Shown in pieces: positions 11,685 to 32,164 of a stretch of 63,801 nt of DNA (position 1 is the stretch's first letter; each line of letters starts with the position of its first letter). The notes under the pieces are model-generated. The model had not been told where the DNA came from, searched no databases, and saw nothing but the letters and a program-made list of their open reading frames with translations. The stretch comes from Aplysia californica. Lineage: Eukaryota. The stretch covers positions 116,103 to 179,903 of the forward strand of contig NW_004798090.1 in NCBI RefSeq assembly GCF_000002075.1, read 5' to 3'. The position numbers and the translations under genes were made by a program.

Positions 11685-14600
11685 ATCAATGAATGATAAT
11701 CCTTATAATAATAGGGTTGAGAGTTTGGTGTTTGTTGACAACTTTGTGGGATCCCACTGTTCCAGGCCTCAAAGTGGTTCACTCTGCTACTAACTGTAGG
11801 TGCTGCTCCTCTATAGGTGAGGTGGCTCCAACCTCTCTTGTGTGTATTTGAGTTTGAGGGGGGCGGGGGGGGGGGGGGGCATCTCTTCTCTTCACATCTA
11901 TTTTGTTCCAGTCTCAGGTGCTGCTAAAATTAGAATCTCCTGTAGTTGCCATTTAGGGTGTGTCTTGAGAGTGACCTGTTTGTTTGTCTAGAGGGGGATA
12001 AACTTACCTGAAAGAAAAATATATGAGGCATCCTGGTGATATCAGGCGCTCGTCAAAATAATGAACTTGGAGAAACAGGCATTTGTCTTACAGTTTGGCT
12101 AATTTTGTAGAATTTCTTTTTTTAAGTCTATGTAAAAACACATTTCCATTTAAATTTTACTGAAAAACGTTGAGTTAAAGACACAAACTACACCATTTTT
12201 CAGTTTTCAAGGACCTTTTAGGCATTTGAGTTACCAAACTTTAGCGCCCACTTTCTCCCTAATTTTACAATGGAAACCAGGCCTCCCTTTTTCTGTAAAA
12301 AAATAAATTATATAATCTATAGCGGTGTATATAACGTAAGGGTTGAAGTTCTCCTAAGGGTAGATCTATATAAAATGCAATGTTTTGCTACTGATTTGGG
12401 GATGAGATAATTAGCCTCCATGGCACATGTCTAATAAATTAATGTCAAAATGTCTGTGTATTGAGTTCTATGGAGATAGTGTCCAATAGAGTTCTAATTG
12501 TCATGGGATAGGTTTTCACACTTCTTCATGTTCATGTGACGAGGACTTCATAGTCATGCACATCAGGACCAGGTAGTCTCTTGAAGCTGAAAAAAAGAAA
12601 TGGACATATTCACTTCCTAGTGTGCTGTTTATTTGTGTGAATTGAAAATCTCTTTCCTCTTCCATTTCTTTTGATCTGTACCTGCTGTTTGCATGGGTAG
12701 TATGATTTCACTTGTTTATGTAGGTGTTTGCGAACTACACATCTACATGTTTGCATAGAAATGGCATCAGGCTAATCCTTTTGACCATTCTTCTTCCATT
12801 TAATGAAAAAAAATTAAAAGACGTGGAGGGTTCCGACGAGTATGAATTTGAGGTTTTTAAAGATCGGGGCGTTGTGGAGTGTTGATCTTTCTTCCGCTTC
12901 TTCTGGATGCAGGTGGTGACAGTTAAGGTGCAGGTTGTGTGTGACTTTAAAGGTGCTGCTTGTTCTGTCACCGGGGGTTGTGCAGGTGGGTCAGCTGGTG
13001 GTTCATGTTGAACTTGTCTGGGGGAAGAAACAGAACGGATTTGGCTTCTGTTCCTGCGTATGTCTCGTGTGTCGTGCTGATTTATGACATACGATCTCGG
13101 TGATGAGACTTTTTCGGTGGCGATTGCAGGTTCCCAATTTTTTGTTTTTGCATTTTGTACTGTCACATGTTCATTTCTTGATAAAGGCGGCAATATCTTT
13201 GTGTGTTGGTCATAGTAGTACCTTTGTGTTTCCTGCCTTTTCTCTAGTCCTTTCTCAATTTGTTCATTGTTTGCAGCATGATTTATCTTTCTTGGCATTG
13301 TGTCTCGCAGTTGTCTGTTGAAGAGCATTTGTCCGGGAGAAGGTAAGCTGTTGTTGATTGGTGTTATTCTCAGAGCAAGAAGACTCAGGTATGGGTCTTG
13401 GGATGTTTCAAATGCCTTTTTTAAGGTACGTTTCACGAGTTTCACTTGGCTCTAGATGAAACCGTTACTCTTTGGATAATGGTGTGAACTTGTTTTGTGC
13501 TGGAATCCATAAGCTGTTGCAAATTCTCTGAAGGCAGTTCTACTGAAATGTGGTCCATTGTCAGATCGCACAATTTCTGGGATTCCATGCTCACTGAAAG
13601 CTTGTTTCTAGAAGGTGATAACTCTTGTTGCGCTGTTGCTGGTGTCTTTTGGCAATTTGCGGACAATTGGAAACTTCGAATAGTAGTTGCTGATGAGAAG
13701 GTATTCATAGCCAGAATATTCAGGTAGAATAGATCAGTGCCTATGGTGTGCCATGGTCTTGGTGGTATCTCTGATTGGATGAGGGGTTCTTTTCGTTGAC
13801 TTGCCTGGTGTTTTTGGCACACTTGGCATTCTGAGACTGTTTGGTCTATTTCTTTGTTGATATTTGGCCAAAAAACTGTCTCTCTGGCGCGGAGCTTTGT
13901 TTTCTCTGTACCAAGATGTGGTTCATGGAGTTTCTTCATAACCTCTTCTTTCATAGATTTGGGGATGATTATCCTTGATTCCTTGATGAGAATTCCATCG
14001 TCAATGGATATTTCATCCCAATAGTTCCAGTAGGCTTTGCATTGATTAGGTACATCTTGTTGTGTCTCTGGCCAGCCAAAGTAGACTAAGTCTTTTAGGG
14101 CCATCAGTTCAGTGTCTGTTGCGGTAGCGTCTTTTATGCGTTGTAGATAGTTTCCAATGAACTGTGTCGCTACCGCGTGGATCTTGACATTCAGGCCCTC
14201 TATTGGTTCCTTCTCATTTCCTGGGAGTCTGGACAGGGCGTCAGCGATAAGCATCTATTTTCCTGGTTTGTAGATAATTTGGAAATCATATGGTTGCAGT
14301 CTTAGAAGCATTCTCTGGAGTCTGGGGGGTGCTGCCTTGAGATGCTTTAGCTGGATCGACTGGAGAGGGCGTGGTCAGATTCAACTTGGAACGTCTGTGC
14401 GTACAGGTAGGCTATGTGTGGAACCGTTCACACCTGTATACCACAGCGAGAAGTTCACGTTCGATATTGGCGTATCGCGTTTCTTCATCTGTGAGGGTTT
14501 TGCTGGCAAATGCTACTGGTTTATCATCTTGCAGGAGTGTAGCACCAAGTGCTTTCATGGATGCATCTACTTGCAATGTGATTGGCTTTTCCGGATTGAA

Positions 14601-17156
14601 GTAGGCGAGCGTGACCTCACTTGTAATTGAGTCCTTGACTTTCTGGAATGCATTTTGGTGGTTTATTGTCTACTCGAACTTGTTTTACTTGGACAGGAGT
14701 TCTCTCAGTGGTGTTGAGAGCTGGCTGATGTTTTGGATGAAGGGCCCATGTATGTCGCTAGACCCAGGAAGAACTAGCTCTTTCTCATTTTCTGGAGCTT
14801 TCATAGCTTTGATGGCTTCAACCTTTGCTGGGTCAGGCTTGATCCCTTCGCCTGTGCAGATTATGCCGTAGAACTTGATGTGGTTTTCCTTGATTCTGCA
14901 TTTGTCTGGGTTCAGCTTAAGTCCTGTTTCCTGACACCGAAGTATCATGTTCTGTAGGTTAGCGTCATGTTCTTCTGCAGTTTCCCCAAACACCACATCA
15001 TCTGCGATGCCAATCACACCTTTGCAGCCTTCAAATGTCTTGTCAATTTTCGCTTGGAAGACGTCTTGGCTCATTCGAAGTCCAAAGGGCATTCTTAGAA
15101 ATCGGTATCAGCCAAATGGAGAATTGAATGTGGTCAGATAACTTGAATCGTCATCAAGCTCAACGTTCCAGTATCCACATTTTGCATCAAGTATGGAGAA
15201 GTACTTTGCTCCGGAGAGGTGTGGCAAAATTTCTTCCAGAGTTGGTGTGATGTGATGCTCCCTCAGTATTGCTTTGTTGAGGTCTTTGGGGTCCAGGCAA
15301 AGACGTAGCCGTCCCGATGGTTTCTCTCTGTATACCAAGCTGTTCACCCAAGCTGTGGGTTCTCCCACCTTGATTCTCTTGATGATTCCCATTGTTTCCA
15401 TCTCATCCAGTTCTGTCTTGATTTTGTCCTCGAGTTTGAGGGGTATTTTCCTTTGTGGATGGATGACCTCTGGGACTGTGGGTCTATATGAATGTGGTAT
15501 TTTCCTTGAAACTTCCCAATTCCGTTGAAAGTGTCAGGGTATTGGGTCATCAGGGAGGCTTTTGGACTTTCTGGAGTTTTGTGAGGGTTGCTTTTGAGGC
15601 TAGATCGAGCCTTTGAAGCATTCTTTGATCTGTCTTGCAACTTCATTTCTAGATTTATGCTGACCAGTCCTAGTTCTCTTAAGGTGGGCAGTCCTAGGAT
15701 AGCTGGTCCTTTGTCCTCCGTCACATAGAATGTGGCGTTTTCTTCCTTCTCCTTGTAGGAGCACTTGATTTTGCAGGTGCCATATTGTTTAACTTGACTT
15801 CCTCCATACGCGGTTATTTTGGTTTTGGATCGGCCTAGTTCTGTTGGTTGTCCACGGCTGTCGAATTTCTGGGGGAACATTTCCTTGTATAGTCTCAAGG
15901 GCAATGCATTCCCTTGGGATCCAGTGTCGATCTTGACTTTGAGTTTATGTTTTGTATTCCTTGAGTTATGACATGGAAGTTGGATGCCTAAGGTTGCGAA
16001 GGCTTCGTCCTCTGTTTTCATTAAGTTCATTTTGAGTGTCTCAAATGTATGTACTTGATAATCTTCTTCTTCCTCCTCATTCCCTATCTCAATTTTGTGG
16101 GTCTTCTGGTTATTGTACTCGAGTTTTCTGCACATCTTTTTGAAATGGTGCGGCTTTTTGCAGTAGCTGCATGTCTGGTGTCTTGCTGGACACTGCGAAA
16201 AAGGGTGAGGGGAGTTGCCGCAATTTGGACAGCATTTTTGTGGTTTTCTGATATTGCTTGATGTAGGAGTGTTTGGTTGGACATGAAATTGTTCGGGTTT
16301 TGATCTGTGATTCTGTTGGGAAAATCTGGGCCTGGAACTACTGGAAGGTGCTTTTTTCATGAGTTTGTGGACATTCACTTGAGGTTGGCTTGACATCGAG
16401 TTTAGTTCATGATTGGATGTTTCCAAAGAACGAGCGATTTTTTAGAGTGTCTTCTAGAGTAGGGTCATCTTCCTGGAGGAGTCGTTCCTTGATTGAATGG
16501 TCATTTGTTCCGAAAATAATTCGATCTCTGATCAGAGAGCTCTGGAGTTTGTCTAACTCGCAACCCTCTGCCAGGAGTTTGAGGGCTGTGACAAATTGGT
16601 CCATGGACTCTCCCTCCTTTTGCACTCTAGAATTGAACCTGTATCTGAGTGTCGTTATTCTCTCTTTGGGGATGCAGTGGGTCCGAAATCGTGTAAAAAG
16701 GTCCTTCACTGTCTGTTCTTCTTCTGGAATTTCCCAGGTATTAAAAGTGTTTCTCCCTTCCTGTCCAATGTTGATAAGCAGGTAGGACATTTTCTGTTGG
16801 TCCGTTTTCTCTGCAAGAGGCCCTGTTAGGAGGAGGCGCATGTTCTGCTCCCACTGTTTAAATTTGCCCGACAGGTTTGGGTCATCAAAGTTCATGGGAG
16901 GAATTTTTGTATGTTCCATGGTCCTGACTATTTCAGGTTTTATTAGTACAGGTGGATTATAGACGTAGACCGAGCTTGATGCACTTGAGGTTCTGGAGTG
17001 ATTTGGTGCCACTCTTTTAATCTGGGTCTGACAGGGGTGTTCGACCCTTGACTTGCGAGCATGCAGCGATCTTACCTTAGATCTCTAGAATCTAGCACTT
17101 AGATGTTAATAAATCCCTGAAGACTTGAGCTTGACGGAGTGTAGGTTCATCTGGAT

Positions 17157-17167
17157 TTCTGACACCA
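17157..17167 (-). other. Primer-binding site (tRNA-Leu-like)
   Basis: TGGTGTCAGAA immediately after the LTR end. Confidence 0.7.
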
Positions 17168-17426
17168 TGTCGTGTTTGTATACACACACAAGTACAAGGA
17201 ATGTATACACACACAAGTACAAGGAATGATCGGCAACAGAACACAGTGTATTAGGCACAGAGGTTTAATGTCTCATGTAGCGGCCAGGACACTGACTCGA
17301 AGTGCGAACAGAACAAAGACTAAAGCGAAACTAAAAGCGAGAGGGTTATTTAAGTTATTAGGTCACTGGAACACAGGTAGCACAACAATGAGGTCGTAGT
17401 ACGGTAAACATTAGAGTATCATGACA
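17168..17426 (-). repeat. 5' LTR (259 bp)
   Basis: TGTCATG...CACGACA termini on -, directly followed by the PBS. Contains a ~25-bp tandem duplication near 17180-17228. Confidence 0.8.
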
Positions 17427-18403
17427 TCATCCTCTTCCGTTGCAAATTTCTTGTCATCTATTCTACATAAATGGGGATTCTTTTTCATTGAAAGCAACCC
17501 CCCCCCCCCAAAAAAAAAAAACCCTTTCCGATAATAAACAAAGTTCTCTAAATGCCCCTAAATTGACGAATGCCTGATTCCACTGTGTCGTGACACATAT
17601 TTTGATTATTGACATCAAGTGGATTGACTTGTCAGATTTTAGTAGTAGTGGAAACAGTTGCTGTAAATGTTTGTTTTGTAACTTAATTGATGGAGTTGGG
17701 GAGAATGTTATTTTGTAATGAGCTAAATGTAGGGTTTTTTTTATCATGTGCTTAGAAATATTTCTCAGCACACATAATTTATTAATGGTCTTTTGGGAAG
17801 GTGGGGGAGGGGGGAATGGGGTGTTAACCATAATTATTACCATGTAATACTTTTACAATTACCATATTAATGGACTGAAACACAATTTCAATCTACTTTC
17901 TGTGGTAATAACAAACCACTTGACAATAACCTATTTGGTCTTGAGGTGTAGGTCTGTGGCCGAGTGGTCAGTGAGATCAGACTCACGATAACATCAGGCG
18001 TATGTCGGAGACACGGCGTTTAGGTGGGTGGTCACTTGGGTGTCTCCTTCTTGAGTGAGGCACTTTAACCTTTGCTAAAATTGCAGGGCACTGCACTGTG
18101 GCGACCAACAATGGCAAGCTAATTGTCTGTATTGGTATGATATTGTATCAAGCTGTTAAAATGTCCTAAGCACAAAAGATTTATTTCAGAAGAGAGATAA
18201 ATCTGTTTTATTTTAAAAATAATTTTTACCATTTTATATAGATCTATCTTTTCTTCCTTTTTTTGTACAATTATTAAGAATTTGAATTTTGACAAAATGT
18301 ATGTCTCAAGCTCACGCAATGAATACCACTGGTTAAGAAACTGAAATTTAAAAAATGTTCACAATTTTGGGCTGACACATTTGAACAGCTGGCCGATGGT
18401 ATA

Positions 18404-19197
18404 CAGTAGAGCATGACAGCACGCGCTACAGCAGGACCATCCCTACAGCGGGACCTCACCAAAACCCCGGTTTACTGTCTATGAAAACTCAATTACCTGT
18501 GCTCGGGTTTAGCGGGGCAAATTAAGGAAAGGCCCGAACTCGGATACAGCGGAAGAGATCAAGCGAGTTCTTGCTGGGGGGAAGGGGGTTGGAATGCTGT
18601 AGGCGGGCTCCAAACAGGTAGTAGCCGTACGGCGTTGTGATTGGCCGGTCCAGTGATGAGTGAGGTGGGGCTGGCGGCAGAGAGAGATGATGTGGATAGA
18701 CGCGTTACGTGAGCCACTCCAAAAGTGATATTCCGTAGCTTAGACGCCCAGTATGAGAGCGTAGGCCATAGCCCTAGGCCTAGGCTAGGCCAAAGAGTAA
18801 AAGAAGAGGAGATCTCGTAGTGTGTGATTCCTGATTCATTGAATTGTGATCGTTGATGCTCATATAGAGGCATACGCAGGCTACCACTTCGCCAGTTCTA
18901 CTGTAAGCCTACCGGTACGATAGATAGCACAAGCTACGAGACCGAGGAAAAGGTGGCTTACAACAAAGACTAAAGGAAATCTTCCTCACTCGAAGTAAAG
19001 GCCAAGATAATCAACGAAGTTGACAAGAAAAGGAAGACTAATCTAAAGCATAAGTTTTATTGATATGGAAGGGAGGTAATCATGTGGATTTTAAGAAAAT
19101 TTTCTGTAATTTCCCCTTTGCACTCCTATAGCAGGAACTCGCCTACAGCGGGATTTTTCTTCTGGAACCCAATGTTCCGCTATAGCCGTGTTTACTG
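18404..19197 (+). mobile_element. Internally deleted Tigger/pogo element
   Basis: TA-CAGTA ... TACTG-TA ends with subterminal ctacagcggga repeats. Remnant LEVKAKIINEVDK (~18985-19030) resembles a CENP-B-type N-terminal HTH. Confidence 0.6.
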
Positions 19198-20236
19198 TAT
19201 TTTGTATTGTTGATAGATTATTGTATGTATGTATATATTTGTATTATGCCAGTGTAACTCAAATTTCCCAATGGGGATAAGCAAAAATGGAATGTAAATG
19301 AATGTGAATTAATACATTTATTTTATCTTTTTAATATAAGATGTACTGTATACAATTGAAATATGAACTAATTTTTTTAAATGTTTAGAACTTGTCCAGG
19401 AAAGAAACTAAAATATCAGAAAAGTATGGCAGAAACTATTACTAGTTCATCAAATAATTCTAATGTCAGCTTGTATGACTTCCTGTGCACAGATTAATTT
19501 CTGAAATAGGTAGGCCTACCTGGTCTGGGGAAAATATTTCAGGATTGTCAGGAAAGATTTGAACTTTGATTGCTGAGAATTAGAATTGAAAATATATTTG
19601 CATAGCTGTCAACCTGTTGTAAAAAACATATTTGATACATTTTTTAAGGTTCCTTTTTTAAATCAGAAAATGCTTATATATTCATTGTTTTCCTGTTCTA
19701 TATTGCTTCTCACGAACTTGCCATTGCTGAAGTAAAATTTGGAAATTTTAGGACTGGATTTGAGAAAGATAAAGAAAACCAAGCTCAAATATTAATTGGA
19801 GAGATCTCTTGCTGCATGTCTCCTTTGAATAGCTTGAATTTATCGAATGCAGTAATGTGTGTGTGAAAGGTTTGGAGGGGGATTACTTGGTCAATGCCCA
19901 CCATCTTGACTGACCTGCTGTGTGGGTAGAGTCTGTTTTCTGGTTTTGAAAAGTTTGCTGCTTTATTGCTATTGCTGTATTCTCATTATTTCAACTGTTG
20001 GAATCTTAGTTTTTCATCTCTGTTAAAATATATTTGGTACTTGGAGATTGTCCTCAGTCCAAATCTTTAAATGAGCTCCAAAAAGGTGTATGTGTTACTT
20101 TCATTGTTTAGAGTTATAATGCTGGTTGCATTTGGCAATGATAAAACCTTCTTGCTGTTGTTGCTGTTTTCATTTATTATGTTATTGTACCTACCATTTC
20201 TTTGTTGGGTGACTGATTCTTTACAATTTGTGACAA

Positions 20237-20555
20237 GCGGAGAGTTAGAGAACGTTAGGAGTAGGCCATTGGCCGATATTTATATAGCAACAGCCATCTT
20301 GTTTGTGTCATATACCGTCATAAAATAGTGTTCTTCATTCTGACAAAAGACAAAAGAAGTTCCAGACCTACTGTCTCACTGTTTGATCAGGAAAAAAAAT
20401 GTGGAGTAAAAAAAGAAAGTTTTTTTTCTTCATTTTAGCAAAGTGTTATGATACATGTAATGCTCACTGTGTATGTTAAAGTATAGGTCAAACATTATGG
20501 CTGTTACTAAAAATATCGGCCATTGGTGTACTCCTAACATTCTCTAACTATCCGC
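20237..20555. mobile_element. MITE-like element with ~45-bp inverted ends
   Basis: gcggagagttagagaacgttaggagta...ggccgatatt pairs with aatatcggcc...tactcctaacattctctaactatccgc. Confidence 0.6.
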
Positions 20556-21771
20556 CAGTCAATTCCTGGACAGATACCAGACGCAACATTTCCTCATAGA
20601 CTCAATTTTCTTTACAGTGGTATTCACTTATGACAAATTCTGATGTGGTAAATACTGAGTTTGGTCATCATATTTTTTTTTTCTCTTTGTGAGAACAGTG
20701 AGAAATAAGTCATTAAATGACTTTAATACGGGCATCTGTGGTGTAGTGGTTTGGAGCTTCGTCATTATTGGATGAAGGAGATCCAAGTTTGATTCCTGAG
20801 TGGAGAGAATTTTTGTTATATAATATGTATCTTGGTCTTTCTGCTGGTATGTTGTACACATATCACACTCTCAGCCGGCTTGGTGGTGACAGGCAATGTT
20901 GAAGCCTGCTTCCTAAAAGATATAATTTGTGTTAATGGGAGCATAATTATACCTACCNNNNNNNNNNNNNNNNNNNNNNNNNNNNNNNNNNNNNNNNNNN
21001 NNNNNNNNNNNNNNNNNNNNNNNNNNNNNNNNNNNNNNNNNNNNNNNNNNNNNNNNNNNNNNNNNNNNNNNNNNNNNNNNNNNNNNNNNNNNNNNNNNNN
21101 NNNNNNNNNNNNNNNNNNNNNNNNNNNNNNNNNNNNNNNNNNNNNNNNNNNNNNNNNNNNNNNNNNNNNNNNNNNNNNNNNNNNNNNNNNNNNNNNNNNN
21201 NNNNNNNNNNNNNNNNNGTACATTACATCCGTTCACGTTTTTTCAAGCAGAACTAGGAACCTGTGAATGGTTTCCCATCTCTTTTCTATATCCCATCCCT
21301 GAAAGGGTGAGTGAAGTGAGAAAACCCAGAGAGGTACCTGTATGTTAATTTACAAATTACATAGAATGGAAGTGATGTTTTTGGTATTAGTTTTTTTTTT
21401 ACAAATTAGTGGTCTCAGAGAATGGGGCCACAACAGCCAGCCTCTACTAGAGTCTAAGTCTAAGGTCTACAACGTGCGATTCAATGGCTTCAAAGCAAAA
21501 GGAAGGCCAAGAAGAAGATGGATCATATGTAGTCAAAGAAACCCCCTCCTCCCAAGCCAAAAGAAACAAATATAAATAACATTAACAATCTAAACCCATG
21601 TACGACAATTGCATCTCCCCTCAACACCTCTTGGTACAAAAATGCATAAAAGTTAGAGGACAGGAAAAAGTAAAAGTAAAGTCGGGATTTCTGTGATGAA
21701 TATAATCGCCTTCTTATATCAGATTTTGCAAGCTGACACAAACAAAACTGTGATATAAACGTTCTGTAAAG

Positions 21772-22539
21772 CAGTGGCGGTGGGTAGTGAAGGGCTCAGG
21801 GGCTTGAGCCCCTCTACCCACCCCCCAAGTCTATCCCAAGGCAAATGAAAAGAAACGAAATAAGCAGTTGAAACTGTTTTGATCGCCCGCAATGAACACA
21901 GAGTCGGCAACTAGGCGGCTTGCTCGTTTATCCAATCACTGTTGTCCCCGCTTACAACTATAGTAACCTAACAGCCAATCAAATGTCTTTAGGACTCAGC
22001 AATCAACCAGCCCGTTCCCACGGTCTCTCCTTAATGAAACCCCTCTTGTAAAAAGGTAGAAGACTTGAAAAAAATAACACTGCACAGAGGGCTCACGCTC
22101 TCCCAGCCCTGACAATGGGGTGAAAGTTTACGACACACTTTCCCCCAGTGACACAGTTACCTATGCGCCCATTGGGCCTTTGTTAGGCGCGTTCTATTTT
22201 CTGCAACAACACGACCCAATCCACCTCATACACGGTGTGTATTTGGAGTGCTGTGTGTTTGTGCCGCTGAGATCTAACAATAATCAAATAAAAACTAATT
22301 AGAGAAATTTGGAGGTGAAACGGCTTTGTTCCCATCATCCAGAAGAATTTAACGTAGAACAAAGAGATGGCAGACAAAGGTGACTCTTCTCGTTTGAATG
22401 GTTCGGTTCTCAAAATGCCGTGGCTCGCCGTGAGTATAGAAAAATCATCACTGTGTTGTTCTTATTGCTTGCTTTTTGGTGGTCAAGAAGTGGAAGAAAC
22501 CTGAGCCCCACCCAAATCTAGGTTCACCCACCGCCACTG
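21772..22539. mobile_element. hAT-type non-autonomous element
   Basis: TIR CAGTGGCGGTGGGT / ACCCACCGCCACTG with a perfect 8-bp TSD CTGTAAAG (21764-21771, 22540-22547). Confidence 0.88.
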
Positions 22540-22749
22540 CTGTAAAGTTAACTCACGAATATTGTTTCTGAGTGAAGAATCGGTGGGAGTCGGAGAAAAG
22601 GCATCAATTCAGAGATTTTCAAGGAAAATAATCCTTGGGGTATTGTGACCTTATTTAGTAATTATTCCTGGTTGTTTCCCTTGGTCTGTGACTTGTTTCA
22701 CCACAGTGGTTTCACAAGTATTCATTACACTTTACAAATTTGCACTATT

Positions 22750-22930
22750 CTATCCCCGGGGTTTTATGCACCCCGCATAATTTAGCAAAATTTGATCATT
22801 TTTTTGCATAATTTCTGATTATGTTCCTATATCATTCTTTGTTGAAATTAACAGAATCGCATGATTTCACATTTTTGGGCCCAGTTTGCATAATTTCAGA
22901 AATATTTTTTGTGTGCTAAAACCGCAGGGA
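22750..22930 (+). repeat. Dispersed ~175-bp repeat (also ~48840-49015 reverse and ~58605-58775)
   Basis: ccccggggttttatgcacc...ttaacagaatcgc...gtttgcataatttcag shared by three loci. Confidence 0.7.
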
Positions 22931-23135
22931 CAAAATATATATAATTGTTGCCTTTGTTCTGTTGAAAGTAATTGAAAAAATAGATGCAACACTTCATCAA
23001 GTAAAAATAACCCGTATAAATTACTCGTACCTTATATTTATATTTGATTTTGTTGTTAGTCATTTGGTTTACACTCATACACGCATGTTGGCCTACCTTG
23101 TATTTATTTTGCTATTGAAACTTCAAAGCCTAAAA

Positions 23136-23668
23136 GGGGGGCTCTCGTGGCCTAGAGGTTAAGGTGTTGGCCTCTCATTCAAAGGTCCCGGGTTCGAATC
23201 TGGGTAGCGACCGAAAACATTTCTTCTCAAAATTGTCTCATTTAACCCCCTTTCCTGCTCTCTAGCAATGTTCTGTCGTCTGTTTTTCGTCTCCGCTTTC
23301 TGCCCCCACCCCCTCACCTCCTTTACCCCCTCCTCTGGGCTCCTGACTCTTTCTGCTGCCTTTCTACTGCTACTTCTTAGCTCTCCCTTCTTAATGCTGT
23401 CTTTCAGCCACACCCCCGATCTTCTGGTAGGAAAGATCTAGACCTAGCCTTCTCAGACAACAAAGGCGAAAAATCCCGGAGGACTCGTTTGCAAGTTGCG
23501 CACGTTAAAGATCCCTTGGTGGTCTTAAATCTATAGGAGTAGTCTTCGGCCGCCACCCGGGCAAAGTATACAATTTTCTACCGACTGAAAAAGTTTAATG
23601 TGTCTCGCGCGCTCATAATACGACCTTATGCAGTAGCGAACGCCATAAAACACTTATTATAAAAAAAA
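23136..23668 (+). mobile_element. SINE family A, full length
   Basis: Same head, body and tail. Absent at the equivalent site of the duplicate (~40505). Confidence 0.82.
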
Positions 23669-24649
23669 GAAACATCTTGTTCGTTTCCTTTTGTATTCGT
23701 ATTAAATCATAAATGATTTAAATCAGTATCGTCATACAGCTGTGACTGTTCTATTATTTAATTTTTTTACGGGAACTCCCCTGTGGATTCAAGTAATAAT
23801 ATTAATAGGTTCTGAGAAATTTATTTTCAACTACCAGGTTCTAGCAATTTTCAGGCTACTACATAAATTTATCTCTCTTTGGTACTTTGGTACCACAGGT
23901 TTTTTTGTTTGCTTGACGGTCTACCTCCGGAGCAGTCTGACAACTGGTTCAGTTAAATTATGTTTGTAAGTATAGCCTTGGCTGCTGGCACTTGTGACAT
24001 GGAGAGAGAACATTTTCTTTCAGCGTAATACAGGCTAGGGGCTGTCGTCGACTGTATTAAACAGTTTTGGTGTTTTTAGTGTGTTCGTTGGGGGGGGGGG
24101 GGGGGGGGGGGTAAGCGGGGAGTTTTTTTGTGGGTAGGAGCGGGTTCGGAGTGTCTGGTTATTACCGTGTCCGATCAGACTTAGGCTACCCTAGACCACC
24201 TAGATCTAGATCACGAAACACGTTAATTGTACATTTACATTGTGAGAATGAAGAACATGGCAAACAGTGATAGTTTTACCGCACTCAGGAATACTACTTA
24301 TCAGCCTAGTGAGAGAGCAAGTTTTAAGATTGTAGTAGAGTTGTTACAGGTTACGACTCATTACGAGTACACGTGTATTAATACACGTGTTATTAGTATA
24401 GCCGTCAGTTGGCGCTTGCAAATCCCCCCCTNNNNNNNNNNNNNNNNNNNNNNNNNNNNNNNNNNNNNNNNNNNNNNNNNNNNNNNNNNNNNNNNNNNNN
24501 NNNNNNNNNNNNNNNNNNNNNNNNNNNNNNNNNNNNNNNNNNNNNNNNNNNNNNNNNNNNNNNNNNNNNNNNNNNNNNNNNNNNNNNNNNNNNNNNNNNN
24601 NNNNNNNNNNNNNNNNNNNNNNNTGCGAAATCAAAGAAACATCAAATTG

Positions 24650-25600
24650 TCTTCACGAGTGTATTATATATTGATAGAATCATGGACATTCATTGCATCC
24701 AATGAATGGAGAATTTTGTCTCTGCAATGAACAATATTTAATTTCGATAGTTTCAAATAATACGGAAAACAGATCAATCACAAATATCACGCAAAACCTG
24801 GACTTAACATTAGATGTGCTATGTGCTCATAGTTAGTTTGCTTAGAAGTCACTGGTTTTGTGTAGGGCACGATCCTTTTGGGCATCTCCTCCTTTAAATT
24901 TTGGACATAATTATGTGTCTTTTCGTCCCAAGTGTCACAGACAGTTGCAAACAAAGGGTCTGAATTGGGAGCAAAGTCGATTTTCTTCACTTGCTGTTTC
25001 ATGGGACTTCTCATATCTGTAGGATTCGCCTGGGCTATTTAATTTGACCACTCCAACGTTGACATGAAATGATTTTCCAAGAATAGTCTAGTGGCATTGG
25101 TCCTGTTAGAAAGGGTTTTGCCATGCATGGAGATGTCTACTTGAATAACATCATGACGAAAATAAGGGTAACACGACGTTCCAACACTTGCGCGATATGT
25201 AGTCCACTAAACCAAGCCATCTGGTGATTCACTCGCAGGCGGTTTTGCTCTGTCTACCCCAGCCACCCTAGTAAACCATGGCAGTTTTGTGGCCTCTGCT
25301 CCTCACAGTAAGTGTAAGGCAGATGATTTAATCCAAAATCTGACTAACACAGTCATGTGCAAAAAAGAAAAAAAAAGTTTGGTGCTCTACACGAAACCAA
25401 TAGCTCCTAAACAAAAACAAAATCATACCAATAAGCACCTGTAATGTTAAGTTAAGTCCAGGTTTTGCATGGTATTTGTGACTAATCTGTTTTCTAATCT
25501 GTGTGAAAATATCACCAGATGATGCTGTACATTGCAGAGACAACAATATTTTCCTATCATTTGATATTCAATACATACCATGTCCATGCCACCAATGTTG
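24650..25600. repeat. Diverged long inverted repeat (foldback-like)
   Basis: gcaaaacctggacttaac / gttaagtccaggttttgc and tgtctctgcaatg / cattgcagagaca in mirrored order. Confidence 0.6.
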
Positions 25601-26061
25601 CACTTCAATACAAGCGCGAACAAACGTTTACGTTTCTATGATTTCACACAATTAGACAATTTGCCAAACGTGAGTTTTTAAAGGTCAGTTTTGAGTGACC
25701 ATATCTCGAGCGTCTCTTAACATGGATGAAACATTATAGTGTCAGATGATGATTAATTTTTATGTAGCTTTTACAATGTAATTGGTATGCTGCATGAGTG
25801 GGTGGTGCAATGCTTTAACATGATAATTGCGAGATTACGTTTTCAAGTTTCTTTTGGACGTCACAGAACGTTATATATTGTAAAATAATCCAAATAAACA
25901 GAAAAACAACAACAACAATAAACAAAAACAAGAACACACACTTTCAGAGCCAAAGCGAAAAGACAAACGAACAAACAAATGGCATTAACAAATAATTTTA
26001 ATGCAAAACGGAAGCCCAAATTCAGTTAGGAACTGTACAAATCAACAAATACATCCATACT

Positions 26062-26067
26062 TTTATT
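26062..26067 (-). terminator. Polyadenylation signal, copy 1
   Basis: AATAAA downstream of the stop, followed by T/GT-rich sequence on -. Conserved in copy 2. Confidence 0.6.
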
Positions 26068-26112
26068 GCCTTTTTTGTTGACGCACCATTCAAGACATGT
26101 CTTGTTGAATTC

Positions 26113-26158
26113 TCAAGGTAGGGCCAGTGGAGGTCCACCGGGAACATAGCACTCATGT
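26113..26158 (-). CDS. Copy 1, exon 4 (terminal)
   Basis: tatctccag| phase 2, (R)HECYVPGGPPLALP-TGA. Supplies the sixth Cys of the module. AATAAA lies ~45 nt after the stop. Confidence 0.75.
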
Positions 26159-26479
26159 CTGGAGATACAAGAATTCTCAAGATGAGAAGATAAGCTAATC
26201 ACAACGGAAGAGGCGGCTTTATTCAAAGGCTGTGACTCACTTTGAGTATCTTGGAGGCCAATGGCTTTAGTTCAAATAATATATTTTTTTGGTAAGTGTT
26301 TTACGGCGCTCGAAACTATAAAGTCATATGAACGCGCGGGGCGCACCTAATATTTTCAGTTGGTAGGAAATTTTGAATTTTGCCCGGGTGGTGGCGGAAG
26401 CCTACTCTTATCGATTTCAGACCACCAAGGGATCTTTATCGTGCGCAACTTTCACACGTAACCTCCTCAGCTACCGGCA

Positions 26480-26760
26480 CTGAGTCCTGCTTGCGTTATG
26501 TAGAAAGACAGAGGATAAAATGGTTTGGCCATCTGTTACGCATGTCACCTGACCTGCCAGCCTCGAGAACCTACAACACCAAGCACCCAGGCTATAAAGG
26601 AAGAGGAAGGCCACGCAAAAGGTGGATCAAGGGTGTCAAGGAAACCCTAAGAAAACATAACATCACGACTGAAAGAGCTGCGGAGCTGGCCTGCCAATAC
26701 TGCCATAGAAAACTGCATCTCCCCTCGACGCTTAACGACAACAGAGGATGAAAAAGTAAA
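26480..26760 (+). mobile_element. RTE LINE 3' end fragment
   Basis: IKWFGHLLRM ... GRGRPRKRW. Related decayed piece at ~21420-21680. Confidence 0.7.
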
Positions 26761-26971
26761 AATAAAGTGATGTAATGCTAAAGACACGAGCTCTGTTCTG
26801 CTATGCGGAGATCGGTGGTTCGATTCAACTGATCCCCACTGACAAAAACAAAAACAAAACAAAAACAACGAAAAGAAACATTCCCCCATCCCCCACTCTC
26901 GCCGGAATATTGAGGCACTCCATTACTTTTTTATGTAAGCGTCTTTGCTCTCTGCTACTCTCTCCCCCCTC

Positions 26972-27788
26972 CAGGGGCGGCTCGTGGGGCTAAAAAGTGG
27001 ACGTGCACAATTAAGCTATCGCTTGCTGAAGATAGTCAAGGGCCAAGGGCATAGTAAATGGGACGGTGTGCAATTTTAGGATCTTTGGGTTCGTGAGGGA
27101 GAACCTCGTGCTTTTATTTTCATTCTTTTTACTTGTCGCTTCTAGTACTGAATTTGTTTGTTAGCTAAACATCAAATTCGTTCATCCTGTATTAGAACTG
27201 AACACTCAAGTAATAACTTTCACTGCTCCACTACAAAACCATTCAAAGGCACAACTCATAGGACGGTCACGTTCACCTCCCTCAGGTTCACTGTCACAGA
27301 GTCACTTAAAATAGCGGCAAGACAGACAATGAACCAATCACAATTCACATGAGCACTCCGCTGGATTGCTCTGGGGCTCACATAATATTGGGAAAGAATA
27401 GCGTACGGTCTATCGCGTTTATTTTTAGACTGCTTACTGTGGGCTATGTTTCGGCACTATTCGGCTGGAGCACATTTGAGATGTGCCGTCTTATTAATAA
27501 ATGTACCGCTAAACTCGCTACGAGTGTCGTCATCGCTTGGGTTATCCCCAGGAGCGATTTATAGGTCAGGTTACACCGTTGAATATCCTATTATGTTTAG
27601 CTAAAGCGTTTGAACTTTGGCATGGTATAGTAGACGATTTAGCGCCAGTGAGGAACTTGTTTTGATATAATATTTGGTTAGTGTTTCAGGCTTCTTTTAA
27701 TATATTATTGTGGGTGTTTTACGTAATAGAACATTAAAAAATTTTGGGCAGCACTGCACGACCGTGCTCTATGGACGAACCGCGCCTG
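26972..27788. mobile_element. hAT-type non-autonomous element in intron 3 of copy 1
   Basis: TIR caggggcggctcgt / acgaaccgcgcctg. TSD cccccctc/tccccctc (7 of 8). Absent from the duplicate near 48500. Confidence 0.7.
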
Positions 27789-28235
27789 TCCCCCTCCCCC
27801 CAAAAAAAGAAAGATAGAGAGACCCCCAAAAAAATCTATAGAAAAAAATAATAAAAAAATACATTAAAAATAAACAAACAAACAAACAACAATAACCAAC
27901 CAAACAAAATAAAAATCAACAAAAAACAACAAGCTAACAATTAAATGAAATAAATAAATAAATAAACAAATAAATAGATAAATAAATAAATAAATCGAAA
28001 CAATAAATAAATAGCCAACATGAATAAATAAATACGTAAATAAATAAATATAAAACAACATTAAAAAAGCAAATGAATAGAGANNNNNNNNNNNNNNNNN
28101 NNNNNNNNNNNNNNNNNNNNNNNNNNNNNNNNNNNNNNNNNNNNNNNNNNNNNNNNNNNNNNNNNNNNNNNNNNNNNNNNNNNNNNNNNNNNNNNNNNNN
28201 NNNNNNNNNNNNNNNNNNNNNNNNNNNNNNNNNNN

Positions 28236-28740
28236 TTTGGTAAGTGTTTTACGGCGCACGCAACTGCATGAAAGGTCAAAATGAGCGCGCGGGGACACTT
28301 TGAACATTTTCAGTGGTAGGAAATTTCGAATTTTGCCAGGGTGGCGGCCAAAGCCTGCTCTTATCGATTTTAGACCCCCAAGGAATCTTTAACGTGCGCA
28401 CGGGACCTCAGAGATTTTTTGCACTTATTCGAGAAGGCTAGGTGTAGATCTTTCTTACCAGAAGATCAGGGGTGTGGTTGAAAGACAGCAGTAAGAAGGA
28501 ACCGAGGAATAGCAGTAGAAAGGCTGCAGAAAGAGTCACAAGCCCAGAGGAGGGGGCAAAGGAGGTGAGGGGGTCGGGGCAGGAAGTGGAGACGAAATCA
28601 GACGACAGAACATTGTTAAAGAGCTGGAAAGGAGGTGAAAGGAGACAATTTTAGAGAAGAAAAATGTTCCGTCGCTACACGGATTCGAACCCGTTACCTT
28701 TGAATGAGAGGCGAGCACCTCAACCGCTAGGCCGTGAGAG
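28236..28740 (-). mobile_element. SINE family A
   Basis: Reverse complement of 23136-23668, inside intron 3 of WAP-VWC copy 1. Confidence 0.8.
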
Positions 28741-28819
28741 ATAACAATTCCCTGAAGTGGGATGGCCTACATTTTTTAGAGAGGGCCCCAAACTTCAAGT
28801 GAGAAAACGCTAGGTTTAC

Positions 28820-28958
28820 CTGTAGCAGGTCAGTTGTCCGTCAAAACACCAGCACATCCCGCAGGACTCGGTGTCTTCCCCATCAACAGCTCGGGTATGG
28901 TTCATCGTGTCGCGGTGAGCGTACGTCTTCCCTCCGACTCCGGTGCACGACTTTGTCA
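28820..28958 (-). CDS. Copy 1, exon 3: VWC/pacifastin-like Cys module
   Basis: ctctacag| ... |gtaaac, phase 1-2, in frame with exon 2: (V)TKSCTGVGGKTYAHRDTMNHTRAVDGEDTESCGMCWCFDGQLTCY. Confidence 0.8.
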
Positions 28959-29176
28959 CTGTAGAGTAATAATTGTAATGATATTAACAGCAACAACAAC
29001 AGNNNNNNNNNNNNNNNNNNNNNNNNNNNNNNNNNNNNNNNNNNNNNNNNNNNNNNNNNNNNNNNNNNNNNNNNNNNNNNNNNNNNNNNNNNNNNNNNNN
29101 NNNNNNNNNNNNNNNNNNNNNNNNNNNNNNNNNNNNNNNNNNNNNNNNNNNNNNNNNNNNNNNNNNNNNNNNNNNN

Positions 29177-29528
29177 TCTTCTATCCCGTTGTTGGGGCAA
29201 CCGTGGGGGCACCACTGCTTCTGAAAACCAGCTCTCGCCATCTATTTTTGTCCTCTGCTTTCCTCAGATTGTCACACATCGTCTTTCCTGTCCACTCTGT
29301 AATGTTGTCCTCCCATCTCCTTCTCTGCCTTCCTCTCTTTCTCTTTCCTTGTACGGTTCCTTGCAGGATTGCTTTGGCAAGTCCTGTGGATCTTGTGACA
29401 TGCCCATACCATTTTAATTTTCGTCTCTTCACTGTGGTCAGTAGATCGTCATATTGCCTCACTGCGTTGGTGATTCTCTTTCGTACCTCAGCATTTGAAA
29501 CGTGGTCTTTGTACGAAATTATACTCAT
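29177..29528 (-). mobile_element. RTE LINE 3' end fragment in intron 2 of copy 1
   Basis: RKLKWYGHVTR ... GKRKRGRQRRRWEDNI. Confidence 0.8.
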
Positions 29529-29863
29529 TAAAAACTAATAAACAATAGTAAGAATGTATGATCGGAAGGCCAACGTCGAATTTAGCTGAATTCGGTCGCA
29601 TTGTGTCAAAACAGAGGTCACAGCACCGTCCATAAAGGAAAAAATATGGCTGGCCATGCCTCAATTAAGAAGAATGCGAATGGCAATGTGTATTGGGTAC
29701 AGTCTTATCTTATCTTACCTTATCTTAGATTTTTGACATACCGTTAATGTTGGACTGCGTATCTTATCTTATCTTATCTTATCCATCTTATGGCAGGTGT
29801 TTGACTTACCGTTTATGTTGGACTGCTTATCTCATCTTATCTTATGGTAGATGTTTGACTTAC

Positions 29864-29983
29864 CGTTATAGCAGGACTTCCCGGCACAGGAGTCGGTGCA
29901 ACACATAGCCCCTCGCCGGCAGTCAGCATCCCTGCTACACTCTTCTCCGCAGGGAACAGTTGCGTCGGGATCCGAAGGACATG
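29864..29983 (-). CDS. Copy 1, exon 2: WAP (four-disulfide core) domain
   Basis: 120-nt phase 1-1 exon, ctctcag| ... |gtaagt, encoding (A)CPSDPDATVPCGEECSRDADCRRGAMCCTDSCAGKSCYN. Eight Cys in WAP spacing with the D-x-D-C ... CC motif. Confidence 0.85.
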
Positions 29984-30929
29984 CTGAGAGTTTGAATTTG
30001 AAAAGAACCTGTATCATGTAGAGTCAAAACTGCTCAAACAACTACATGTCTAAGACAATCACCTGTACAAATGAGCCCTTCCAACATTCCCCTTGTATTT
30101 TCCAATTATTATAATGACTCTGATAGGGACTACCGGTCTAAAAGGACCAATCTTCTTTTCGACAATGGGAGATCGTATTGAATAGATTCAACTGTATATC
30201 ACTGGCCTCTATGGTGTACCGGTTAGACACTTCACAGTCTTAGGAAAGGGGCACGGGTTCGATTCCCGAGTGGGTTAGAAGCCTACCTCCTAGATGATCT
30301 TAATTGTGTTGATGGGGGCGTAAAGACATCTATATTAAAAAGATGCTCGGTGTCACTTTCTCACTCAAGTACACTAATAGTAAATGAACACAAACAACTA
30401 GTTTAAAAGTTCTGAATGAAGGGCTTGTTAGGTACTCCCAGGTATGGTCAAAAACGTAAAGAGACGCATCACATGACTGGGGAATCTACTGTTTTGAAGG
30501 AGACCTAGATCGTGGTTGGACTACAAGAATCCTGATGTAACTAAACGTTTAAATACACACGCTTTCAGAAATGTAGTATTTCGATGTAGCCTTCCGGAAA
30601 GAAAGCTCCTGCGGCTTAGGCCTACTAATTATATTTTCCATGGCTCTTCAGTTAAGTAATTCCAAAAATCATATTACATGATAACGTAATATTATGTCTT
30701 CTCTGGGACATACTACGTTACTACAATTTACGTGAATCACGTTGCATAATTAATAGATTTCACTATCTGACGACAGATAAAAAAAATGACGCGAGACTGC
30801 TGTTTACTGGGGATATGGTATCCTATTCATAGGGGCCGGCAATCGAACTCATGATCTGAAGATGGCACATTTAACAATTAATTTGAAAAAGAAATGATTC
30901 TGCCGAAACAAAGGCGAAATACTCATTAC

Positions 30930-31002
30930 CAAGCTCAGGCAACCGAATATATGCTTGGGTCCCAATAGACGCAAGAAAAAGAAGAAATAAACAAGCGTTC
31001 AT
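30930..31002 (-). CDS. Secreted WAP + VWC/pacifastin-like protein, copy 1, exon 1 (signal peptide)
   Basis: gccATG then MNACLFLLFLASIGTQAYIRLPEL, with a hydrophobic core and T-Q-A cleavage-like site. Phase-1 donor G|gtaatg. Conserved in the duplicate. Confidence 0.75.
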
Positions 31003-31118
31003 GGCGATATACAACAGTATAGAGGAAAACCGAAGTGCAGGAAAACTGGTGTGAAGTTGGTCCAGTTAGTTTCAGGACAGCGACAACCTGAGATCTCCGA
31101 GGCTTGTGATCTGTTCTT

Positions 31119-31126
31119 CTTTTATA
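31119..31126 (-). promoter_or_regulatory. TATA box of WAP-VWC gene copy 1
   Basis: TATAAAAG ~120 nt upstream of the ATG, conserved in copy 2. Confidence 0.6.
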
Positions 31127-31431
31127 CTGGGTTTCCTAGTGTTGACGAGAGAGGATATTTTCAGACTTTGAAGTGTGTTTTAAAGCCACCCAGAGTAATT
31201 GTAATGCGCGGCAGCTGGCTATCGCCAAATATTAGTTTTCGTAACAACCACCGCTACACCATTAACAACATGGATTAAATGGTCTTAATTTTGACAATCA
31301 TTGTCGTAACATGACCTCTCTCCACATATGTAGAGATTACGCACTCAGAGGACAATGGGTGTGGTATGGTGCGCCCTATTCTCCTTGTTTGATCACTTGT
31401 TACTATCATAATGACTGATGGCAATGAGTCT

Positions 31432-31917
31432 ACATAACAAGAGGGTCCACTCCTCTCTTTGAGCAAATTAAAAAAGTGTCCTCAAAATTCGGTGGCACCC
31501 TCTTCGCAAATGCGCACCATTTGCGAACAGAGTTACCCTACTTAAAAAAAAAATCAAAGTGAAACTAACAAGTTTTTAAATAAATAAGAATTCAAATTTC
31601 GGAAGAATGCTTTTTAAAAATGGTTACGCTGACAAAAAACCTCTCCCGGAGGAAAGGGCAACTTTTTTCTTCGTTTAATTTGACTTTAGAATAAGAGGCG
31701 AGAGAGATCATTAAATTAAAAAAAACCTTAAAACTCCGCACTGAAAGAATCCGAACAGCTGATGAACAGCATTCAATCTGCGCACGCAAGGAGGTGCTAT
31801 TCCTATTCTTCTTCCGGAGAAACGAAAGAGAACTTCAAAACAGACTGCAGCGCCATCTGAAGCGAGAGCGAACTTCCGGCAGACACTTTTTTGGCTGAGT
31901 GGACCATCTTGTTATGT
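31432..31917. mobile_element. MITE with ~21-bp TIR, TA flanks
   Basis: acataacaagagggtccactc / gagtggaccatcttgttatgt. Second copy in the opposite orientation at 36769-37234. Confidence 0.8.
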
Positions 31918-32164
31918 ACTATCTTTGCTGATGGTTCGTTTCTGTGGGTATACTCGATCTCGACGCGTCTGCACATAATTTGTTTGAAGTAGGTCACTTG
32001 ATCTCAACACGATGGAGTATCATGGAGGTGAGTCCATTGTTGAAGCAAACAATGGACGGACAATATTATAGCGGCGTGGTATCTTTATCTCTATCTATTA
32101 TATTTGTGAAAATTCGTTACCTTTGGGCGCCTAAAACTTCCGAATCACTTAACTTTTGAATTTG

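What the first reader, a model, noticed from the sequence alone, without database searches (positions are those of the whole stretch)
26062..31126. Unannotated 4-exon gene for a small secreted WAP + VWC/pacifastin-like protein
Four short minus-strand exons splice in frame with canonical GT-AG sites (phases 1, 1, 2) into a 125-aa protein: MNACLFLLFLASIGTQA-YIRLPELA-CPSDPDATVPCGEECSRDADCRRGAMCCTDSCAGKSC-YNVTKS-CTGVGGKTYAHRDTMNHTRAVDGEDTESCGMCWCFDGQLTCYRHEC-YVPGGPPLALP. It has a TATA box and AATAAA, and all four exons and both signals recur in the duplicate. Established: WAP domains occur in protease inhibitors, crustin antimicrobials and shell-matrix proteins, and C-x2-C-x-C-x2-G-x3-C-x4-C resembles the VWC N-subdomain and pacifastin inhibitors. 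Inference: a compact two-domain secreted inhibitor or defence protein, an architecture I do not recognise as a named family.
Basis: partly seen in the sequence, partly recalled or inferred. Interest (0 to 1): 0.8.

Follow-up and report, generated by a model that had tools for sequence, protein, structure and literature searches.

The report
Sea-slug secreted WAP plus half-VWC protein
This is a real sea-hare gene, already annotated but unstudied, for a small secreted disulfide-rich protein that joins two known modules in an arrangement shared by several sea slugs and snails, most likely a binding or defence protein; its neighbouring duplicate is broken as assembled.

Summary
The four-exon gene is real: GT-AG sites, phases 1, 1, 2, 125 aa. 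It is not unannotated: the protein is identical to Aplysia californica LOC101845278 (NCBI 'uncharacterized protein'). Six further proteins share the layout signal peptide + WAP + six-cysteine module, with 14 cysteines each; four of them are named, from Aplysia, Elysia, Plakobranchus and Physella. I found no paper describing this small gastropod family. Module 2 is the N-terminal half of a VWC domain (FnI-like fold). It is not a true pacifastin: Gly replaces the invariant Asn in 7 of 7. The WAP domain lacks the elafin/SLPI inhibitory spacing in 7 of 7, and all members are acidic (pI 4.5-5.1), which argues against a crustin-like antimicrobial. Best guess: an extracellular binding/recognition protein (0.4). 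Main rival: a trypsin-type inhibitor through the Cys5-Cys6 loop (0.27). No function was tested. It is a new arrangement of known modules, of modest interest.

The parts
31120..31126 (-). TATA box of copy A, 124 bases before the ATG; same position in copy B
   Evidence: promoter and 5' UTR are 93% identical between the copies
30930..31002 (-). Copy A exon 1, coding part: signal peptide plus 7-8 mature residues; phase-1 donor
   Evidence: signal-peptide codons pN 0.05 against pS 0.41 between copies
29864..29983 (-). Copy A exon 2: the whole WAP four-disulfide core (8 Cys, spacing 9-3-5-5-0-3-4); symmetrical phase 1-1 exon
   Evidence: Pfam PF00095 24.6 bits, cut-off 20.8; spacing; fold match to omwaprin/elafin/SLPI, Z about 4.0
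28820..28958 (-). Copy A exon 3: Cys1-Cys5 of the half-VWC (FnI-like) module; the exon most diverged between the copies
26113..26158 (-). Copy A exon 4, coding part: Cys6 of module 2, Pro-rich tail, stop codon
   Evidence: nearly identical tail in P0002
26062..26067 (-). AATAAA polyadenylation signal of copy A
54101..54107 (-). TATA box of copy B
53914..53983 (-). Copy B exon 1, coding part (intact signal peptide, different mature N-terminus)
52666..52784 (-). Copy B exon 2 (WAP), 96% identical to copy A but one base shorter: frameshifted as assembled
49065..49209 (-). Copy B exon 3, open frame, all five Cys kept, 72% identical to copy A
47547..47622 (-). Copy B exon 4: Cys6 kept, then a one-base gap against copy A and a different tail; AATAAA at 47519-47514
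10660..32017 (.). First unit of a tandem segmental duplication (last exon of a SelO gene, intergenic DNA, copy A)
   Evidence: chain of collinear same-strand blocks
38522..54471 (.). Second unit of the duplication (decayed SelO last-exon copy, copy B)

Best explanation
A small secreted, acidic protein with 14 cysteines (seven disulfides expected), one of a family in heterobranch gastropods. After the signal peptide is removed, a WAP core of the non-inhibitory waprin/anosmin spacing is followed, six residues later, by the N-terminal half of a VWC domain with an FnI-like beta-sheet. Loss of the VWC C-terminal half leaves Cys2 and Cys6 without their usual partners, so they most likely pair with each other as in pacifastins (inferred). 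Most likely mechanism (inferred, untested): a soluble binding/recognition protein in haemolymph, mucus or another secretion. The half-VWC sheet and its long first loop grip a foreign or extracellular protein or surface, as single-VWC opsonins and FnI modules do, while the WAP core gives protease-resistant support or a second contact. Shown: gene, architecture, family, fold class, charge. Inferred: disulfide pairing, tissue, ligand, defence role.
For: Same layout and 14 Cys in 7 of 7 members. Module 2 matches real VWC repeats beyond the Cys pattern: 14-28 bits against shuffle means of 3-6; at most 1 of 100 Cys-preserving shuffles reached the real score in 8 of 10 repeats; hhalign E 1.5e-4. Model residues 67-114 align with FnI modules (Z 4.9-5.3, rmsd 1.6-1.9, 40-42 residues) and VWC domains (Z 3.6-3.9). 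Atlas structure rows for residues 64-120 are VWC proteins and pacifastin-like clusters, TM 0.59-0.66. WAP Cys2-Cys3 spacing is 3 in 7 of 7, not the 6/8 of elafin and SLPI (PMC11408880, passages). Mature pI is 4.5-5.1. Between the copies exon 3 differs at 28% of sites against 16.6% in alignable introns (Fisher p 0.002) with all Cys kept, while exon 2 differs at 4%. Single-VWC proteins act as opsonins (MdSVWC1, PMC11515477 passages; granularin seen only as a reference title there).
Against: No expression, ligand or assay data. Fold Z-scores are middling, and the second model (paralogue P0008) gave only Z 2.3-2.6 to FnI/VWC-like chains. Exon 3 dN/dS is about 1.2 and not distinguishable from 1 (Fisher p 1.0). 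dS there is also high (0.35), the intron baseline is biased towards alignable stretches, and copy B may be a pseudogene, so positive selection is not shown. Across the family module 2 is no more variable than the WAP domain (non-Cys identity 0.30 against 0.22). The opsonin analogues are 8- or 10-Cys proteins, not this 6-Cys half. A basic residue is kept at the pacifastin P1 position in the closest three sequences, which favours the inhibitor rival.
Confidence: 0.4

Rival explanations
1. Canonical serine-protease inhibitor: module 2 works like a pacifastin, offering the Cys5-x-P1-P1'-x-Cys6 loop with Arg111 as P1 to trypsin-like proteases; the WAP domain is an accessory.
For: Six-Cys scaffold, Gly in the Cys4-Cys5 loop and a four-residue Cys5-Cys6 loop (6 of 7). 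P1 is Arg in P0001 and P0002 and Lys in copy B while the neighbouring residues differ. PMC13388995 (Results read) reports 109 molluscan proteins with pacifastin-like domains, an 'ancestral' class with a long N-terminal hairpin, Lys or Glu at P1, and WAP among co-occurring domains.
Against: The Asn after Cys2, called invariant in that paper, is Gly in 7 of 7. Pfam Pacifastin_I matched 0 of 7. P1 is Glu, Glu, Ser and His in the other four comparable members. Cys1-Cys2 spacing is 20-27 against 9-12 or 13-20. The model draws residues 106-113 as a continuous strand. The paper says activity of its non-metazoan homologues is not validated in vitro, and its Results report no assays.
Confidence: 0.27
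2. Structural or modifying component of an extracellular material (mucus, egg mass, cuticle, larval or internal shell), like the WAP proteins perlwapin and lustrin A.
For: Acidic, disulfide-rich and secreted. WAP domains and a VWC-repeat protein occur in mollusc shell proteomes (PMC5854119, passages).
Against: Members are kept in Elysia and Plakobranchus, which lack an adult shell (recalled; larvae have one). There is no low-complexity or repeat region, and only one WAP domain.
Confidence: 0.15
3. Minimal BMP/TGF-beta modulator: the half-VWC equals subdomain 1, which carries BMP-2 binding in Crossveinless-2, and the WAP domain and linker stand in for the clip segment.
For: CV2 binds BMP-2 through subdomain 1 plus clip (PMC6270503, passages; PMC2944808, start of abstract only). 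Atlas structure neighbours include chordin-like, BMPER and CRIM1 clusters.
Against: About 30% identity among most members, fast change of exon 3 and a range limited to gastropods among the named hits do not fit a conserved developmental ligand. A shared fold shows no function.
Confidence: 0.08
4. Direct-acting antimicrobial like crustins or omwaprin.
For: WAP domain of waprin-type spacing; profile hits to nawaprin (E 0.00085) and anosmin-1 (E 0.00046).
Against: Crustins are cationic with a C-terminal WAP domain (PMC11767717, passages). Here the net charge is -3 to -10 in 7 of 7 and the WAP is N-terminal.
Confidence: 0.05

Closest known systems
WFDC/WAP family, waprin/anosmin-type domains (PF00095; nawaprin 1udk, omwaprin 3ngg, anosmin-1)
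   Same: Eight-Cys core on one phase 1-1 exon, Cys2-Cys3 spacing 3, Pfam hit above cut-off, fold match Z about 4
   Different: Followed by a half-VWC module; acidic; lacks the 6/8 spacing of elafin and SLPI domain 2
VWC domains (PF00093), subdomain 1; FnI-like modules (PF25028 FnI_RECK, fibronectin/tPA/FXII fingers)
   Same: Cys spacing n-2-1-6-4, similarity beyond the Cys pattern, FnI-like sheet
   Different: Only six of ten Cys, no subdomain 2, first loop 20-27 residues against 18-19 in the P0004 repeats; no Pfam VWC or FnI hit above cut-off
Pacifastin-like domains (PF05375), 'ancestral' class of PMC13388995
   Same: Six Cys, Gly in the Cys4-Cys5 loop, four-residue Cys5-Cys6 loop, long N-terminal hairpin, molluscan, WAP listed as a co-occurring domain
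   Different: Gly for the invariant Asn in 7 of 7, longer first loop, no Pfam hit, P1 not conserved across the family
Single-VWC proteins (arthropod SVWC/Vago type; Lymnaea granularin)
   Same: Small secreted proteins built on one VWC-derived module; opsonin role shown for MdSVWC1 (PMC11515477)
   Different: SVWC has eight Cys and no WAP domain; no sequence match to them was found here
Crustins and single-WAP-domain proteins of crustaceans
   Same: Signal peptide plus one WAP domain in a protein of about 12 kDa
   Different: Crustins are cationic with a C-terminal WAP; this protein is acidic with an N-terminal WAP and a second folded module
Database-named relatives: A. californica 'WAP four-disulfide core domain protein 18', Physella acuta 'waprin-Phi2-like', ElyMa_003833300, PoB_006984600
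   Same: Same two-module layout and 14 Cys, profile E 2e-43 to 3e-42
   Different: About 30% identity; they form a group apart from P0001 and P0002 (98/100 support); their automatic names mention only the WAP half

Membership tests
WAP/WFDC domain proteins | Eight-Cys four-disulfide core with Pfam PF00095 above the gathering cut-off | tested here: met
   24.6 bits (exon 2) and 21.9 bits (whole protein) against 20.8. Above cut-off in 3 of 7 members, below in 3, no hit in 1.
Elafin/SLPI-type inhibitory WAP | Cys1-Cys2 and Cys2-Cys3 spacing of 6 and 8 (PMC11408880) | tested here: not met
   9-13 and 3 in 7 of 7
Elafin/SLPI-type inhibitory WAP | Measured protease inhibition | not testable with these tools
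   needs an assay
VWC domain (complete) | Ten Cys in two subdomains | tested here: not met
   Six Cys, then a short Pro-rich tail and the stop. Pfam VWC in 1 of 7, E 0.031, below cut-off.
VWC subdomain 1 / FnI-like module | First six Cys with n-2-1-6-4 spacing and sequence similarity to VWC repeats beyond the Cys | tested here: met
   The last spacing is 8 in P0012, so 6 of 7 match fully.
VWC subdomain 1 / FnI-like module | FnI-like beta-sheet fold | tested here: inconclusive
   Z 4.9-5.3, rmsd 1.6-1.9 over 40-42 residues for P0001; Z 2.3-2.6 for the paralogue model; Foldseek best E 0.043. Consistent but middling.
Pacifastin (I19) | Six-Cys scaffold with Gly in the Cys4-Cys5 loop and Cys5-x-P1-P1'-x-Cys6 | tested here: met
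   Gly105 invariant in 7 of 7; four-residue last loop in 6 of 7
Pacifastin (I19) | Invariant Asn after Cys2 (PMC13388995) | tested here: not met
   Gly in 7 of 7
Pacifastin (I19) | Cys1-Cys2 spacing 9-12 (conventional) or 13-20 (ancestral) | tested here: not met
   27 in P0001; 20-27 in the family, only 1 of 7 within range
Pacifastin (I19) | Disulfides 1-4, 2-6, 3-5 | not testable with these tools
   Model coordinates were not returned; the pairing is inferred from CV2 connectivity (PMC6270503).
Pacifastin (I19) | Profile or fold match to solved pacifastins | tested here: inconclusive
   Pfam PF05375 in 0 of 7, but filters drop weak hits. Two Atlas clusters with PF05375 align at TM 0.63.
Crustins | Cationic, WAP at the C-terminus | tested here: not met
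   pI 4.5-5.1, WAP N-terminal in 7 of 7 (definition from PMC11767717)
SVWC / granularin-type opsonins | Single VWC domain of eight Cys (SVWC), no other domain | tested here: not met
   Six-Cys module plus WAP (definition from PMC11515477)
SVWC / granularin-type opsonins | Binding to microbes and promotion of phagocytosis | not testable with these tools
   needs an assay

The most novel reading that the evidence does not exclude
An undescribed gastropod family in which a VWC domain was cut to its N-terminal half and re-paired its two orphan cysteines, giving a pacifastin-like scaffold without the pacifastin Asn, fused behind a WAP domain. It would be a living intermediate between VWC binding modules and pacifastin inhibitors, with the Aplysia/P0002 branch already a trypsin-type inhibitor (basic P1) and its binding exon under diversifying selection after tandem duplication.
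Probability: 0.2. Interest if true: 0.55.

Novelty: new variant of a known kind. Interest (0 to 1): 0.32.

Why it matters
The gene itself is ordinary in kind: an annotated, uncharacterised secreted protein built from two known modules. What is new is modest. At least seven proteins share a fixed WAP + half-VWC layout that automatic annotation labels only as WAP, and my searches found no paper on it. If the six-cysteine module pairs 1-4, 2-6, 3-5 and inhibits proteases or binds microbes, it would give a small, easily expressed test of the proposed link between VWC/FnI modules and pacifastins. It would also add a candidate effector to the poorly charted secreted defence of sea slugs and freshwater snails.

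Tried and rejected
Start coordinates 31000 and 31001 were my slips; the ATG is at 31002. Single exons against solved-structure sequences gave nothing significant (best E 1.4 and 2.6). Of 11 hits in the 1.84-billion-protein search I kept 6 as family members and dropped 5: P0003 (a Cys-poor repeat protein, chance hit), P0004 (a ten-repeat VWC protein, kept only as the comparator for module 2) and P0009-P0011 (multi-WAP proteins). Atlas feature scores were 0.81 and 0.78, below 0.9, so leads only. No pacifastin chain appeared among the listed fold rows, which does not exclude the family. A profile scan of all six frames found only copies A and B in the window, but 16 N gaps, several inside the introns, could hide sequence. 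An allelic false duplication was rejected: introns differ by 15-20% and the units differ by mobile-element insertions. Promoter scans found no kappaB or C/EBP motif in about 400 bases upstream of either copy (patterns recalled). The cluster-member look-up for P0001 could not be made, so its accession list and cluster size beyond 'one member' stay unseen. Complex prediction with a bacterial trypsin was not available, so docking of the Cys5-Cys6 loop is untested. The bacterial/archaeal genome collection was not scanned, being irrelevant to an animal gene. No eukaryotic genome or RNA-seq collection was on hand. The supplements of PMC13388995 held as text (2 files) had no occurrence of Aplysia, Elysia, Plakobranchus, Physella, LOC101845278 or WAP. 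Its full accession list may lie elsewhere, so whether it includes this family is open.


Full report
Observation. The minus strand carries four coding exons at 31002-30930, 29983-29864, 28958-28820 and 26158-26113, each internal boundary AG or GT, phases 1, 1, 2, giving 125 aa. TATAAAA starts at 31126 and AATAAA lies at 26067-26062. Exon 3 alone, searched against proteins of 80-2000 aa, returned one candidate: a 125-aa protein named by NCBI 'uncharacterized protein LOC101845278 [Aplysia californica]', identical to the model. So the window is sea-hare DNA and the gene is annotated, though uncharacterised. I did not see what evidence supports the NCBI model. A second protein, P0002, is 49% identical over the whole length, including the exon 4 tail (2 of 10 candidates). 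Its source label is 'merc', which I recall as a catalogue assembled from marine metatranscriptomes; if so, it is independent support for the spliced product.

The duplicate. Collinear same-strand blocks link 10660-32017 with 38522-54471: a tandem segmental duplication that also copied the last exon of a neighbouring SelO gene (Pfam SelO). Copy B keeps all four exons, the TATA box and AATAAA. Its exon 2, however, is one base shorter in a G run, so it reads 63 aa to the first stop, and exon 4 has a second one-base gap after the last cysteine. Both gaps sit in short homopolymers, so a young pseudogene and an assembly error cannot be told apart here. Copy B was under purifying selection for much of its history: signal-peptide codons show pN 0.05 against pS 0.41, and exon 2 pN is 0.034. 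Exon 2 is symmetrical in phase, so skipping it would keep copy B in frame (96 aa); that is speculation. Identity between copies is 93% in the promoter, 80-88% in alignable intron parts, 96% in exon 2 and 72% in exon 3. Exon 3 exceeds the intron baseline (39 of 139 against 142 of 858 mismatches, p 0.002) with all five Cys kept. But dN/dS is about 1.2 and not different from 1, dS is also raised, and the baseline is biased to alignable DNA. This hints at relaxed or diversifying selection and does not prove it.

The family. A full phmmer scan gave 11 hits at E up to 0.001. Six have this layout (P0001, P0005-P0008, P0012); with P0002 that makes seven. A profile search named four (6 of 364 candidates passed): Plakobranchus ocellatus PoB_006984600, Elysia marginata ElyMa_003833300, Physella acuta 'waprin-Phi2-like' and a second A. 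californica protein, 'WAP four-disulfide core domain protein 18'. All named hosts are heterobranch gastropods (taxonomy recalled). All seven have a hydrophobic N-terminal stretch (no SignalP was available; in P0012 it lies at residue 44 of a probably mispredicted 212-aa model), 14 cysteines, a six-residue linker between modules, and a mature pI of 4.5-5.1. P0001 and P0002 group apart from the other five (98/100; unrooted, long branches).

Module 1 is a WAP domain, above Pfam's cut-off. The family profile finds anosmin-1 and nawaprin over the whole domain and elafin only over its second half. Cys1-Cys2 spacing is 9-13 and Cys2-Cys3 is 3 in 7 of 7, whereas the antiprotease domains of SLPI and elafin have 6 and 8 (PMC11408880, two passages). 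That review also notes some inhibition by WFDC2, so spacing lowers but does not exclude activity.

Module 2 has spacing 20-27, 2, 1, 6, 4 (the last is 8 in P0012), matching the first six cysteines of the Pfam-confirmed VWC repeats of P0004 (18-19, 2, 1, 6, 4). The similarity goes beyond cysteines: a profile of module 2 scored the ten repeats at 14-28 bits against means of 3-6 for Cys-preserving shuffles, with at most 1 of 100 shuffles reaching the real score in 8 of 10. The AlphaFold2 model (pLDDT 69.7, pTM 0.45, six sequences) aligns residues 67-114 with FnI modules at Z 4.9-5.3 and with VWC domains at Z 3.6-3.9, and residues 23-69 with omwaprin, elafin and SLPI at Z about 4. These are middling scores, Foldseek had no match at E 0.001, and a model of the paralogue gave weaker ones. 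In Crossveinless-2 VWC1 the disulfides are Cys9-31, 29-38, 26-60, 43-61 and 50-64 (PMC6270503, passages), that is 1-4, 3-5, 2-8, 6-9, 7-10. Cutting the domain after Cys6 orphans Cys2 and Cys6, and pacifastins pair exactly 1-4, 2-6, 3-5 (PMC13388995). I infer that pairing here; it was not measured.

Is it a pacifastin? PMC13388995 (abstract, whole Results, selected passages, supplement search) extends pacifastin-like domains to molluscs and lists WAP among co-occurring domains, so the general combination may have been glimpsed. It defines the fold by six Cys, an invariant Asn after Cys2 and a Gly in the Cys4-Cys5 loop. The Gly is there, the Asn is Gly in 7 of 7, the first loop is mostly longer than its 13-20 range, and Pfam Pacifastin_I matched 0 of 7. 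I do not file it as a member. It may still work like one: P1 is Arg, Arg and Lys in P0001, P0002 and copy B, but Glu, Glu, Ser and His in the other branch.

Mechanism. The best reading (0.4) is a soluble recognition or binding protein whose half-VWC surface grips a foreign or extracellular target, by analogy with SVWC opsonins (PMC11515477, passages; granularin seen only as a cited title). Against it stand the lack of any functional data and the fact that module 2 is not more variable than the WAP domain across the family. Rivals: trypsin-type inhibitor (0.27), matrix, mucus or shell component (0.15; PMC5854119, passages), BMP modulator (0.08), direct antimicrobial (0.05; crustins are cationic, PMC11767717, passages).

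Literature. 'LOC101845278' gave 0 papers. Aplysia + whey acidic protein gave 8, snail + WAP domain + VWC 2, four-disulfide core + Aplysia 6, and + Biomphalaria 9. None of those listings pointed to this architecture; I read passages of two of them. In the waprin/snail search none of the 30 listed papers (of 857) held 'waprin'. The library lacks most subscription papers, so this is limited evidence of novelty.

Verdict. Real gene, correct architecture, wrong on 'unannotated' and on the intactness of the duplicate. It is an apparently undescribed small gastropod family combining two known modules: a new variant of a known kind, interest 0.32.

Noticed in passing
window 6856-7684 and about 10600-11684 (+): A SelO (protein adenylyltransferase) gene with only one intron seen, two large exons, a C-terminal Cys-Ser-Ser end and a hydrophobic N-terminal stretch after the ATG at 6922 that looks like a signal or targeting peptide.
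   Followed up: partly
window 38522-39890 (+): Decayed copy of the SelO last exon, 88% identical over the coding part with several frame-breaking gaps; it marks the start of the second duplication unit.
   Followed up: partly
window 12017-17607: Broken LTR-retrotransposon-like gag-pol on the minus strand (about 12735-17084; read from ORF translations, no Pfam confirmation), present in the first duplication unit only, so inserted after the duplication.
   Followed up: no
window 31422-31916; second copy 36759-37239: Element of about 495 bases with inverted ends, flanked by a 7-base direct repeat, inserted about 300 bases upstream of the TATA box of copy A only; MITE-like, and it could alter expression.
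   Followed up: partly
window 29864-29983 against 52666-52784: Exon 2 is more alike between the copies (96%, 2 synonymous changes in about 24 sites) than the flanking introns (80-88%); purifying selection or recent gene conversion.
   Followed up: partly
window 29700-29863 and 52540-52665: AAGAT pentamer microsatellite just inside intron 2; in copy A the donor-side sequence is itself repeated two to three times, giving extra GT donor-like copies downstream of the true donor.
   Followed up: no
window 10040-10560, 23136-23668, 26284-26466, 28236-28740, 42399-43026, 57986-58468: A dispersed repeat family of about 500 bases in at least six copies on both strands, two inside intron 3 of copy A; probably a SINE.
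   Followed up: no
window 5780-6789, 26377-26751, 29181-29534, 63338-63754: LINE-like reverse-transcriptase fragments, two of them within the introns of copy A (read from ORF translations).
   Followed up: no
P0009 (1209 aa, unnamed library): Six WAP-like repeats in front of an EHD/dynamin-type GTPase domain, sarcalumenin-like layout (name recalled); not part of this family.
   Followed up: no
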